This document shows, in pieces, positions 3,001 through 6,000 of a stretch of DNA of 64,000 nt. This DNA comes from Escherichia coli O157:H7 (GTDB lineage Bacteria; Pseudomonadota; Gammaproteobacteria; Enterobacterales; Enterobacteriaceae). The position numbers were made by a program. Location: NCBI RefSeq assembly GCF_013167455.1, contig NZ_CP038328.1, one strand, 5' to 3'. How positions within the stretch are numbered: position 1 is the first letter of the stretch; the number at the start of each line of letters is the position of its first letter.

Positions 3001-6000
3001 GTGATGCTGGATCGTTACTGGTACGGCCCCTCCAGTCGTATCTCGCCGGAAGCGCCGGTGCCCGTGGTTAAAGTGAATACCATCGAAGAACGTCCGGGCG
3101 GCGCGGCTAACGTGGCGATGAATATCGCTTCTCTCGGTGCTAATGCACGCCTGGTCGGGTTGACGGGCATTGACGATGCAGCGCGCGCGCTGAGTAAATC
3201 TCTGGCCGACGTCAACGTCAAATGCGACTTCGTTTCTGTACCGACGCATCCGACCATTACCAAATTACGGGTACTTTCCCGCAACCAACAGCTGATCCGT
3301 CTGGATTTTGAAGAAGGTTTCGAAGGTGTTGATCCGCAGCCGCTGCACGAGCGGATTAATCAGGCGCTGAGTTCGATTGGCGCGCTGGTGCTTTCTGACT
3401 ACGCCAAAGGTGCGCTGGCAAGCGTACAGCAGATGATCCAACTGGCGCGTAAAGCGGGTGTTCCGGTGCTGATTGATCCAAAAGGTACCGATTTTGAGCG
3501 CTACCGCGGCGCTACGCTGTTAACGCCGAATCTCTCGGAATTTGAAGCTGTTGTCGGTAAATGTAAGACCGAAGAAGAGATTGTTGAGCGCGGCATGAAA
3601 CTGATTGCCGATTACGAACTCTCGGCTCTGTTAGTGACCCGTTCCGAACAGGGTATGTCGCTGCTGCAACCGGGTAAAGCGCCGCTGCATATGCCAACTC
3701 AGGCGCAGGAAGTGTATGACGTTACCGGTGCGGGCGACACGGTGATTGGCGTCCTGGCGGCAACGCTGGCAGCGGGTAATTCGCTGGAAGAAGCCTGCTT
3801 CTTTGCCAATGCGGCGGCTGGTGTGGTGGTCGGCAAACTGGGGACGTCCACGGTTTCGCCGATCGAGCTGGAAAACGCTGTACGTGGACGCGCAGATACC
3901 GGCTTTGGCGTGATGACCGAAGAGGAACTGAAGCTGGCTGTAGTGGCAGCGCGTAAACGTGGTGAAAAAGTGGTAATGACCAACGGTGTCTTCGATATCC
4001 TACATGCCGGGCACGTCTCTTATCTGGCAAATGCCCGCAAGCTGGGTGACCGCTTGATTGTTGCCGTCAACAGCGATGCCTCCACCAAACGGCTGAAAGG
4101 GGATTCCCGCCCGGTAAACCCACTCGAACAGCGTATGATTGTGCTGGGCGCACTGGAAGCGGTCGACTGGGTAGTGTCGTTTGAAGAAGACACGCCGCAG
4201 CGTCTGATCGCCGGGATCCTGCCAGACCTGCTGGTGAAAGGCGGTGACTACAAACCGGAAGAGATCGCCGGGAGTAAAGAAGTCTGGGCCAACGGCGGCG
4301 AAGTGTTGGTGCTCAACTTTGAAGACGGTTGCTCGACCACTAACATTATCAAGAAGATCCAACAGGATAAAAAAGGCTAACCGGAAAGCGGTTCACAGAT
4401 CTCGCTTCGTACATGGCAGGCCTATTGACGCTGTTGTCTTTTCAACCTAGAGTAAAGGAACAAGGGTAAGGGAGGATTTCTCCCCCCTCTGATGAGTTGT
4501 TAGTAAGTCGGGAAACTTAACAGTAACAACACAACCAGTATGATGACGAGCTTCATCATAACCCTTTCCTTCTATAAGGCCCCTTCCTCGGGAGGGGCTT
4601 TCCCGTTTCAGCCCCTTGCTGACTCCCCGATTGTTGATGAGCGCCGGACCCCGCGCAACGCTTTCCCTGAAGCAGTTTTGCCTTCCCCGAGCGGTCACGC
4701 AAAACGCTGCAACGTCCTGAGCATTTGCACCTTTTAGCGGAACGCAGATATAAAAAATCCCCGGCTTTTTGGGCCAGGGATATGTGTTAATGAAACCTTC
4801 TTGACGCTGATTTTTTTTCAACCTAAAGTAAAGGAACAAGGGTGAGGGAGGATTTCTCCCCCCTCTGATTGGCTGTTAATAAGCTGCGAAACTTACGAGT
4901 AACAACACAATCAGTATGATGACGAGCTTCATCATAACCCTTTCCTTCTGTAAGGCCCCTTCCTCGGGAGGGGCTTTCCCGTTTCAGCCCTTTGCTTACT
5001 CCCCGATTGTTGATGAGCGCCGGACCCCGCGCAACGCTTTCCCTGAAGCAGTTTTGCCTTCCCCGAGCAATCACGCAAAACGCTGCAACAGCCTGATCAT
5101 TTGCACCTTTTAGCGGAACGCAGATATAAAAAATCCCCGGCTTTTTGAGCCAGGGATGTTCATAGCTGAAAATTTATTCTACGTTTTCGGCGACGGGAGT
5201 TGTTGGGGTTAAGAGTGAAGTCAATGCAGCCAGTGAGCCGCCTGAAACGCCAATTTCATTGAGCAAGGAGTCAATCAGTGGTGCCTGTGTGCGGTAAGAG
5301 AGTGCGGCTGATAATGCTTGTTCCGCCAGGTTTCCGCCCCCCACATTACCCGTGTTTGCATCCCCCGCAGTACCACCACGATTCAGACCATCGACCTGAA
5401 TAATCTTGATACCGTCAATGGACTTCATTGGTTCCACGGATTTCTCTATTACCGCAGGTAGCGCCTGCAACAAGGCCAGTTTGAATTTAAGGCTGGTTTG
5501 TTCGTCAGAAAGTACGTTGATAGCATCGTTCAGCGCACGTTGTGCTTCTGCTTCCGCCAGGCCTTTTTTACGCGTAGCTTCGGCTAACTCAACGATCGCC
5601 GCCGCCTGCATCTCTGCGGCTTCTTTTTCTGCTTTCGCCCGCACGGTCAGTTCAACCGCTTTGGTTTCTGCATCCTGTGCTGCGGCAATCAGCGCCACCT
5701 GCTTGGCACGATCGGCTTCGGCTGTCTGGCGAGTGGTTTCTACGTTTTGTTGGGCGCTTACTGCTTCTGCGAGTGCAAGGTTAGCACGCGCTTCTGCCTG
5801 GGACTGTTGTTCCGATTTGGCGGCAATAGCGATCGATTTCGTCTGGTTAGCGATTTCGGTGACCTGCTGCTGTTCGATCTCTTTAATGCGAACTTCACGT
5901 TCAGCTTCAACTTTTCTTGAGCGGACGGCCTGTTCGCGGTCGATTTCTGTTTCCTGAATCTGTCGTTCAGCCAGAATTCGCGTCTGCTCTGCTTCACGAC

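What the first reader, a model, noticed from the sequence alone, without database searches (positions are those of the whole stretch)
4443..5165. Tandem Ibs/Sib type I toxin-antitoxin units hidden in the hldE-yqiK intergenic region
Two ~375 bp direct repeats each encode, on the minus strand, a 19-aa hydrophobic peptide (MMKLVIILVVLLLLSFPTY and MMKLVIILIVLLLVSFAAY). Each also has a plus-strand promoter (ttgacg, 17 nt, tagagt/taaagt) and a GC hairpin with T-run, defining a ~144-nt antisense RNA that fully covers the toxin ORF. The ORF track only reports long spurious ORFs here. The two toxins differ at four residues, so the copies have diverged rather than being a recent duplicate.
Basis: partly seen in the sequence, partly recalled or inferred. 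Interest (0 to 1): 0.5.

Follow-up and report, generated by a model that had tools for sequence, protein, structure and literature searches.

The report
Known sibE/ibsE and sibD/ibsD toxin-antitoxin pair

Summary
Window 4425-5165 holds two 376-bp tandem units that are 92% identical. Each gives a full-length Rfam SIB_RNA (RF00113) match on the + strand, at 140 and 148 bits against a gathering score of 56. Each encodes a 19-aa hydrophobic peptide on the - strand. The peptides are 100% identical to E. coli K-12 IbsE (hldE side, 4559->4500) and IbsD (yqiK side, 4935->4876). The Sib RNA regions differ from K-12 SibE and SibD at only 3 and 2 positions. The 1-kb region is 100% identical to E. coli O157:H7 genomes, where RefSeq annotates both ibs genes. 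K-12 annotates sibD, sibE, ibsD and ibsE at the same locus. Mechanism, from the literature on K-12: each ~144-nt Sib RNA is fully antisense to its own ibs mRNA and blocks its translation. Discrimination between copies comes from two variable recognition domains. Ten of the 12 SibE/SibD differences in the window fall in Sib +35 to +62, around the first domain. Minor corrections: the start at 4443 cuts off the first -35 hexamer (4425-4430). The terminator T-run is weak (TTTCCCGTTT). The locus is missed by ORF callers but not by public annotation. About a quarter of complete E. coli genomes carry one unit here. Novelty: already known. Interest is low.

The parts
2947..4380 (+). hldE (left flanking gene, converging on the locus)
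   Evidence: 477-aa ORF. Annotated hldE in the identical O157:H7 record.
4425..4453 (+). sibE promoter: -35 TTGACG (4425-4430), 17-nt spacer, -10 TAGAGT (4448-4453)
   Evidence: Promoter scan. The TTGAC of the -35 is invariant across all five K-12 sib genes. The start at A4460 lies 7 nt after the -10, mapped from K-12 sibE.
4460..4603 (+). SibE antitoxin RNA, 144 nt (ends mapped from the K-12 annotation)
   Evidence: Rfam RF00113 match 4425-4574, 140.2 bits. 141 of 144 positions identical to K-12 SibE. Fold -51.8 kcal/mol, z = -3.6, with an 11-bp terminal hairpin at 4576-4601.
4500..4559 (-). ibsE ORF: MMKLVIILVVLLLLSFPTY plus stop. The AAGGA Shine-Dalgarno motif (4571->4567) lies 7 nt before the ATG.
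   Evidence: Translation. Identical to K-12 IbsE b4666. Annotated ibsE (WP_010723221.1) in the identical O157:H7 record. The Shine-Dalgarno motif was read directly.
4630..4658 (-). Inferred ibsE promoter: -35 TTGCGC (4658->4653), 17 nt, -10 AACAAT (4635->4630). Predicted start about 4623.
   Evidence: Inference. It aligns with the ibsC TTGTGT/TACGAT elements. The start site implied there matches the published 18-nt 5' overhang and the 159-nt ibsC RNA (PMC2943612). It scores below the threshold of the consensus scan.
4460..4623 (-). Inferred ibsE mRNA, about 160 nt, almost fully overlapped by SibE
   Evidence: Inference and from the published ibsC and ibsD transcript lengths of 159 and 163 nt. 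The 3' end is not defined.
4757..4781 (-). Terminator-like hairpin plus T-run, a duplicated copy of the yqiK terminator. It separates the ibsD unit from the ibsE promoter.
   Evidence: Terminator scan. It is part of the 376-bp repeat.
4801..4829 (+). sibD promoter: -35 TTGACG (4801-4806), 17-nt spacer, -10 TAAAGT (4824-4829)
   Evidence: Promoter scan. Identical to K-12 sibD over these columns. [quoted passage not shown]
4836..4979 (+). SibD antitoxin RNA, 144 nt (145 nt in K-12, which has one extra C)
   Evidence: Rfam RF00113 match 4801-4950, 147.7 bits. 143 of 145 aligned positions identical to K-12 SibD. Fold -54.7 kcal/mol, z = -4.4, with a terminal hairpin at 4952-4977.
4876..4935 (-). 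ibsD ORF: MMKLVIILIVLLLVSFAAY plus stop
   Evidence: Translation. Identical to K-12 IbsD b4664. Annotated as an Ibs family toxin (WP_001387081.1) in the identical O157:H7 record.
5006..5034 (-). Inferred ibsD promoter: -35 TTGCGC (5034->5029), 17 nt, -10 AACAAT (5011->5006). Predicted start about 4999.
   Evidence: Inference. In K-12 the same elements plus the published 163-nt ibsD RNA end within 2 nt of the SibD start.
4836..4999 (-). Inferred ibsD mRNA, about 163 nt
   Evidence: Inference.
5133..5157 (-). yqiK intrinsic terminator, the right end of the second repeat unit
   Evidence: Terminator scan: 10-bp stem followed by TTTTTATATC. It lies 17 nt after the yqiK stop codon.
5174..6835 (-). 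yqiK (flotillin family protein), the right flanking gene
   Evidence: 553-aa ORF. Annotated yqiK in the identical record.

Best explanation
The locus is the E. coli tandem pair of type I toxin-antitoxin units: sibE/ibsE next to hldE and sibD/ibsD next to yqiK.

In each 376-bp unit a weak minus-strand promoter makes an ibs mRNA of about 160 nt. That mRNA encodes a 19-residue hydrophobic membrane peptide. A stronger plus-strand promoter makes a Sib RNA of about 144 nt that is perfectly complementary to the ibs ribosome-binding site, start codon and whole ORF.

Sib pairs with its own ibs mRNA. Pairing starts at two recognition domains, one over the ORF (TRD1) and one over the translation-initiation region (TRD2). 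It blocks ribosome binding, and the duplex is probably cleaved by RNase III. Little or no toxin is therefore made.

If Ibs is made in excess, it inserts into the inner membrane, depolarises it and stops growth.

The two units are kept separate because their sequences differ mainly in the recognition region.

Shown here: the anatomy, and the identity to K-12. Taken from the literature: transcription, repression, cognate specificity and toxicity. Inferred: the ibs promoters and the mRNA ends.
For: - Two full-length SIB_RNA matches at 140.2 and 147.7 bits, against a gathering score of 56.
- A 376-nt tandem repeat, 92% identical.
- Peptides identical to K-12 IbsE and IbsD.
- K-12 annotates sibD, ibsD, sibE and ibsE between yqiK and hldE in the same order.
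- The 1-kb region is 100% identical to O157:H7 records that annotate both ibs CDSs.
- The Sib regions differ from K-12 at 3 of 144 and 2 of 145 positions.
- The Sib promoters match the sigma-70 consensus at 9 of 12 positions with 17-nt spacers.
- The RNAs fold more stably than shuffled sequence (z = -3.6 and -4.4) and carry a terminal hairpin.
- Ten of the 12 SibE/SibD differences lie in Sib +35 to +62. Five fall in the published TRD1 span (+46 to +68) and one in the TRD2 span (+99 to +115) (Han 2010, PMC2943612).
- Literature: repression occurs only between cognate pairs, and SibC carrying the SibD recognition domains represses ibsD. Sib blocks translation and RNase III is implicated (PMC4147584). 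SibD and SibE RNAs were detected on northern blots in K-12 (PMC12956327). IbsC depolarises the membrane within minutes (PMC8309996).
- 5,414 of 5,426 complete E. coli genomes carry this locus.
Against: Nothing in the sequence argues against it. The limits are these.

- The Sib terminator T-run is weak and was not called by the scan.
- The ibs promoters are poor consensus matches and are inferred by alignment only.
- K-12 still labels IbsD as a 'putative' toxic peptide.
- NCBIfam has no HMM that recognises the peptides, so family assignment of the toxin rests on identity to K-12 and on RefSeq naming.
- The clustering of differences in +35 to +62 was noticed after the fact. With the published TRD1 span the enrichment is modest (5 of 12, binomial p about 0.03).
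Confidence: 0.97

Rival explanations
1. The repeats are decayed, non-functional remnants of Sib (QUAD) repeats. They would be pseudo-units that no longer make a working toxin or antitoxin in this strain.
For: Copy number at this locus varies. About 14 of 60 evenly sampled genomes, UTI89 and E2348/69 among them, carry a single unit, so one unit is dispensable. The ibs promoters are weak matches to consensus.
Against: Both ORFs are intact and identical to the K-12 peptides. Both Sib promoters and both folds are intact. The Rfam matches cover the whole model. The units are 95-97% identical to K-12, with only 2-3 changes in each Sib. A decaying element would not keep start codon, stop codon and Shine-Dalgarno motif in both copies across lineages.
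Confidence: 0.02
2. The long ORFs that overlap the repeats are the real genes, and the short peptides are incidental. These ORFs are 4447-4839 (-, 130 aa), 4823-5074 (-, 83 aa), and 4540-4737 and 4916-5113 (+, 65 aa each).
For: They are the only ORFs a mechanical list reports here. The two 65-aa plus-strand ORFs are repeated in both units.
Against: The frames are not conserved. In K-12 the 142- and 116-codon open frames shrink to 88 and 80 codons. Single-base indels move the plus-strand frames onto different downstream sequence. Neither RefSeq record annotates them. Their repetition follows simply from the DNA repeat.
Confidence: 0.01
3. The Sib RNAs act mainly on targets other than the overlapping ibs mRNAs, as trans-acting or NAD-capped regulatory RNAs. 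The toxin-antitoxin relation would then be secondary.
For: SibC, SibD and SibE are among the known NAD-capped RNAs in K-12, and their synthesis responds to ppGpp and DksA (PMC12956327). The physiological role of the chromosomal Ibs/Sib units is still unclear in the literature.
Against: Perfect antisense overlap with the ribosome-binding site and ORF is built into the locus. Published genetics show cognate-specific rescue from ibs toxicity (PMC2943612). No other target was searched for or found here.
Confidence: 0.05

Closest known systems
E. coli K-12 sibE/ibsE (b4611/b4666) and sibD/ibsD (b4447/b4664), in the yqiK-hldE intergenic region
   Same: Same flanking genes, order and orientation. The peptides are identical. 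SibE matches at 141 of 144 positions and SibD at 143 of 145. The unit length of 376 nt and the duplicated terminator are also the same.
   Different: Only strain-level substitutions. In SibE these are two changes at 4572 and 4575, in the region antisense to the ibsE 5' UTR just upstream of the Shine-Dalgarno motif, and one in the terminator loop at 4587. In SibD there is one missing C and one terminator-loop change. Outside the Sib RNAs, the units differ from K-12 at 10 of 365 and 20 of 367 positions.
E. coli K-12 sibC/ibsC, the experimentally best-characterised member (Han et al. 2010, PMC2943612)
   Same: Same architecture. The -35 TTGAC, the ATGATG...CATCAT core, the terminator hairpin and TTTCCCGTTTCAGC are conserved. 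IbsC is 74% identical to the IbsE peptide here. The ibs promoter elements align in position.
   Different: It is a single unit at another locus (fau-serA). Homology ends about 200 nt from the Sib -35, so the remaining ~175 nt of the 376-bp unit here is specific to the D/E duplication. The recognition-domain sequences differ, which is the published basis of cognate specificity.
Other tandemly duplicated type I toxin-antitoxin loci of E. coli: sibA/ibsA-sibB/ibsB, ldr/rdl and zor/orz
   Same: A small hydrophobic toxin, an RNA antitoxin, and tandem duplication within one intergenic region (PMC2887945).
   Different: Ldr and Zor toxins are longer and unrelated in sequence, and their antitoxins do not fully overlap the ORF. 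The sibA/B unit has a 335-nt period and different flanking sequence.

Membership tests
Rfam RF00113 SIB_RNA | Covariance-model score at or above the curated gathering score (56 bits) over the full model | tested here: met
   140.2 bits (4425-4574) and 147.7 bits (4801-4950), model positions 1-147 of 147, not truncated. The mirror-strand hits score 28.7 and 33.5 bits, below threshold.
Rfam RF00113 SIB_RNA | Own sigma-70 promoter directly upstream and a terminal G+C hairpin, defining an RNA of about 140 nt | tested here: met
   TTGACG-17-TAGAGT and TTGACG-17-TAAAGT. An 11-bp terminal hairpin in both folds. The length is 144 nt by mapping the K-12 ends. Caveat: the T-run is only TTTCCCGTTT and was not called as a terminator.
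Rfam RF00113 SIB_RNA | The RNA is actually transcribed and abundant | not testable with these tools
   K-12 SibD and SibE were detected on northern blots (PMC12956327). There are no data for this strain.
Ibs toxin family | ORF of 18-19 codons for a hydrophobic peptide, encoded wholly inside and antisense to a sib gene, with a Shine-Dalgarno motif and an ATG | tested here: met
   ORFs at 4559->4500 and 4935->4876 lie inside 4460-4603 and 4836-4979. The AAGGA motif lies 7 nt before the ATG.
Ibs toxin family | Sequence relationship to the characterised Ibs peptides, including the invariant MM..II...LL..SF..Y positions | tested here: met
   100% identical to K-12 IbsE and IbsD. 68-78% identical to IbsA, IbsB and IbsC, with 9 invariant columns. 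RefSeq names them IbsE and Ibs family toxin.
Ibs toxin family | Match to a curated protein-family HMM | tested here: inconclusive
   An NCBIfam scan of the peptides, padded with X to 20 residues, found no Ibs model. The only hits were chance-level (E >= 0.24) to unrelated families. The peptides are too short for Pfam's profile_search (minimum 30 aa).
Ibs toxin family | Growth arrest and membrane depolarisation on overexpression | not testable with these tools
   Shown for IbsC (PMC8309996). ibsD expression plasmids needed a Sib with matching recognition domains in co-transformation assays (PMC2943612).
Type I toxin-antitoxin system | The antitoxin is an RNA that base-pairs with the toxin mRNA over its translation-initiation region | tested here: met
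   Each Sib is the exact reverse complement of its ibs Shine-Dalgarno motif, start codon and ORF, by position on opposite strands.
Type I toxin-antitoxin system | The antitoxin represses toxin synthesis in vivo, specifically for the cognate pair | not testable with these tools
   Published for K-12 (PMC2943612; PMC4147584). Consistent here: 10 of the 12 SibE/SibD differences cluster at +35 to +62.
Type I toxin-antitoxin system | An independent promoter for the toxin mRNA | tested here: inconclusive
   TTGCGC-17-AACAAT on the minus strand is below the scan threshold. It was inferred by alignment to ibsC, where the position fits the published start site.

The most novel reading that the evidence does not exclude
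The two diverged units may be functionally non-redundant switches rather than spare copies. Their toxins differ at four residues. Their Sib promoters differ in the -10 hexamer (TAGAGT versus TAAAGT) and in the spacer. Each ibs gene is followed, about 250 nt from its inferred start, by its own terminator-like hairpin (4781-4757 and 4393-4379). IbsD and IbsE could therefore be released under different conditions or act on different membrane targets. One candidate target is the Fo sector of ATP synthase, reported for Salmonella IbsA in a 2025 preprint. That could matter for persistence of O157:H7 in the host. Roughly a quarter of E. coli strains manage with one unit.
Probability: 0.15. Interest if true: 0.3.

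Novelty: already known. Interest (0 to 1): 0.06.

Why it matters
This matters little as a discovery. The Ibs/Sib family was described in 2008 and the locus is annotated in K-12 and in RefSeq O157:H7 genomes. O157:H7 Sakai was already reported to carry seven ibs genes (PMC2887945).

It is useful as a positive control. A reader working from raw sequence alone correctly recovered a 19-codon toxin gene that ORF finders miss, along with its antisense RNA, promoters and length. That shows the scan can recover this kind of element.

The biological role of chromosomal Ibs/Sib units, and the reason most strains keep two diverged units here, remain open questions. This window adds no new handle on them.

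Tried and rejected
- NCBIfam HMM scan of the two peptides, padded with X to reach the 20-residue minimum. No Ibs model exists or matches, and only chance-level hits appeared.
- The founding paper (Fozo et al. 2008, PMID 18710431 / PMC2597788) is not held in the library. Its findings are cited second-hand from Han 2010, two reviews and Fozo 2010.
- A permissive Rfam scan of 4300-5300 added only sub-threshold hits: NsiR1, mir-7 and GadY at about 20 bits, and mirror-strand SIB_RNA at 29-34 bits. I treat the first three as chance. The mirror-strand hits are what a largely palindromic antisense pair would give.
- The long overlapping ORFs were considered as genes and rejected, because their frames break in K-12.
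- The inverted repeat 4368-4386 / 5552-5570 (79% complementary, arms 1165 nt apart) looks like chance.
- I assumed the whole window was colinear with O157:H7 strain PV15-279 and tested it. Window 14001-63739 aligns at 99.97%, but the last 261 bases do not. The window therefore comes from a closely related strain, not that exact one.
- The enrichment of SibE/SibD differences in the recognition domains is strong only for a span chosen after the fact (+35 to +62, p about 3e-6). For the published TRD1 span it is modest (p about 0.03), and for TRD2 there is none (1 of 12). I report it as consistent with the published model, not as independent proof.
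Full report
**What is in the sequence.** hldE ends at 4380 on the + strand and yqiK ends at 5174 on the - strand. The window between them holds a direct repeat with a start-to-start spacing of 376 nt. Positions 4425-4724 and 4801-5100 are 92% identical without gaps. Over the full units, 4425-4789 versus 4801-5165, 335 of 365 positions match. On the minus strand, 4559->4500 translates to MMKLVIILVVLLLLSFPTY and 4935->4876 to MMKLVIILIVLLLVSFAAY. On the plus strand the promoter scan finds TTGACG-17-TAGAGT at 4425-4453 and TTGACG-17-TAAAGT at 4801-4829. 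It found 3 promoter-like sites against 0.6 expected from shuffles.

**Identification.** A scan of the whole window against Rfam gives two full-length matches to RF00113 SIB_RNA on the + strand. They lie at 4425-4574 (140.2 bits) and 4801-4950 (147.7 bits), against a gathering score of 56, with E-values of 7e-29 and 9e-31. The 1-kb region 4300-5300 is 100% identical to E. coli O157:H7 chromosomes, and 5,414 of 5,426 complete E. coli genomes carry it. In the identical O157:H7 record, RefSeq annotates two 60-nt CDSs at exactly these positions. It names them 'type I toxin-antitoxin system toxin IbsE' and 'Ibs family toxin', lying between hldE and yqiK. In K-12 MG1655 the same interval is annotated yqiK - sibD/ibsD - sibE/ibsE - hldE. 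The K-12 IbsD and IbsE peptides are identical to the yqiK-side and hldE-side peptides of the window. So unit 1 is sibE/ibsE and unit 2 is sibD/ibsD.

**Transcript boundaries.** I mapped the annotated K-12 ends through the alignment. This places SibE at 4460-4603 and SibD at 4836-4979. Each is 144 nt and starts at an A 7 nt after the -10 hexamer. These RNAs differ from K-12 at 3 of 144 and 2 of 145 positions. They fold to -51.8 and -54.7 kcal/mol (z = -3.6 and -4.4 against shuffles), with a closing helix, internal hairpins and an 11-bp terminal G+C hairpin. The tract after that hairpin is only TTTCCCGTTT, and the terminator scan did not call it.

**The toxin mRNA.** Han et al. 2010 mapped the ibsC and ibsD starts by primer extension. 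They made ibsC and ibsD RNAs of 159 and 163 nt and state that the ibsC mRNA overhangs the SibC 3' end by 18 nt (PMC2943612). In K-12 that overhang places the ibsC start 7 nt downstream of a TACGAT hexamer, which is preceded by TTGTGT, and 159 nt from there reaches the SibC start exactly. The aligned positions in the window read TTGCGC-17-AACAAT, at 4658->4630 and 5034->5006 on the minus strand. They predict starts near 4623 and 4999. These promoters are weak by consensus and are an inference.

On the minus strand three terminator-like hairpins are called:
- 5157-5133, just after yqiK.
- 4781-4757, a duplicate of the yqiK hairpin, lying between the two units.
- 4393-4379, overlapping the hldE stop codon.

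**Extent of the family repeat.** Aligned with all five K-12 units, family-wide similarity runs from the Sib -35 for about 200 nt, to just past the terminator (TTTCCCGTTTCAGC...GCTG). The other ~175 nt of the 376-nt unit is shared only between D and E. That segment contains the ibs promoter, about 100 nt of unassigned sequence and the terminator copy. The D/E pair is thus a local tandem duplication of a Sib unit together with the neighbouring yqiK terminator region.

**Divergence between the two units.** The two Sib RNAs differ at 12 positions: +9, +35, +36, +38, +44, +49, +50, +52, +61, +62, +76 and +115. Seven of these lie in the ibs ORF and give four amino-acid changes and two synonymous changes. 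Ten of the 12 lie in +35 to +62. Five fall in the published TRD1 span (+46 to +68) and one in TRD2 (+99 to +115). The enrichment is p about 0.03 for the published TRD1 span and is stronger only for the span chosen afterwards. This agrees with the published finding that repression is cognate-specific and is set by these two variable domains. The same two alleles occur in K-12 and O157:H7, so the duplication is old.

**Mechanism.** The anatomy shown here is a perfect cis-antisense arrangement that covers the Shine-Dalgarno motif, the start codon and the ORF. Four points come from the literature:
- Sib blocks translation of its cognate ibs mRNA, and RNase III probably processes the duplex (PMC4147584).
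- SibD and SibE RNAs are detected in K-12, are NAD-capped, and respond to ppGpp and DksA (PMC12956327).
- Overproduced IbsC depolarises the membrane within minutes and kills cells (PMC8309996).
- Salmonella IbsA is reported to inhibit the Fo sector of ATP synthase (bioRxiv 10.1101/2025.05.26.656083).

**Rivals.**
- The long ORFs listed over the repeats are not conserved as frames. In K-12 the 142- and 116-codon open frames fall to 88 and 80 codons, and single-base indels shift the plus-strand frames.
- A 'decayed remnant' reading is contradicted by the intact ORFs, promoters and folds and by the near-identity to K-12.
- A role for Sib RNAs beyond the antitoxin function is not excluded, but nothing here supports it.

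**Population context.** In 60 records sampled evenly down the ranking, 45 carry the two-unit form and 14 carry a single unit, with a match span of 626 nt instead of 1001 nt. UTI89 and E2348/69 are among the single-unit strains. One single-unit example was inspected and has one annotated Ibs toxin. Fozo et al. 2010 already noted that ibs-sib loci are duplicated within one intergenic region, that ORF callers often miss them, and that O157:H7 Sakai has seven ibs genes (PMC2887945).

**Verdict.** The feature is already known and already annotated. The corrections are small:
- The true left edge is 4425, not 4443.
- The terminator T-run is weak.
- The units should be named sibE/ibsE (hldE side) and sibD/ibsD (yqiK side).
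- 'Hidden' applies to ORF finders, not to public annotation.

Interest is low.

Noticed in passing
window 4379-4393 (- strand), T-run to about 4369: A terminator-like hairpin (AACCGCTTTCCGGTT followed by AGCCTTTTTT) sits on the minus strand and overlaps the hldE stop codon. It lies about 254 nt from the inferred ibsE start. The duplicated yqiK-type terminator at 4781-4757 lies about 250 nt from the inferred ibsD start. Native ibs mRNAs could therefore be longer than the ~160 nt used in vitro.
   Followed up: partly
window 4517-4544 (+ strand): The best promoter-like match in the region is TTAACA-16-TATGAT (10 of 12). It lies inside sibE, antisense to the ibsE ORF, and is absent from the sibD unit, which has TTACGA there. 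It is probably chance, but it could give a short 3' SibE fragment.
   Followed up: no
window 4660-4756 and 5036-5132: About 100 nt lie between the inferred ibs -35 and the terminator copy. The segment is 92-95% conserved between the two units and with K-12, is not shared with sibA, sibB or sibC, and has no assigned function or Rfam match.
   Followed up: partly
window 63740-64000: The last 261 bases do not align with O157:H7 strain PV15-279, which has a partial transposase next to a truncated pitB there. The rest of 14001-63739 is 99.97% identical to that strain. Window 63889-64000 (- strand) matches Rfam isrC (127.7 bits, cut off at the window end).
   Followed up: partly
window 8416-8564 (+ strand): A full-length FMN riboswitch (RF00050, 120.9 bits). 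From my own knowledge of the K-12 map it is presumably the ribB leader. The downstream gene was not checked.
   Followed up: no
window 42288-42351 (- strand): An Rfam ES173 sRNA match (99 bits, gathering score 90). It lies directly after the yqhD stop and before dkgA in the O157:H7 annotation, so it probably covers the yqhD terminator region.
   Followed up: partly
window 48132-48202 (+ strand) and 59175-59251 (- strand): Two naRNA4 (RF02564) matches at 68 and 85 bits. They lie in the yghA-exbD and yghU-hybG intergenic regions of the O157:H7 annotation.
   Followed up: no
L006 (O157:H7 PV15-279), features corresponding to about window 38,600-41,300 and 50,200-51,300: RefSeq marks yqhG and gpr as frameshifted pseudogenes and pitB as truncated in this O157:H7 record. 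It also annotates a five-gene iron-siderophore ABC transporter and TonB-dependent receptor cluster between ygiN and parE.
   Followed up: no
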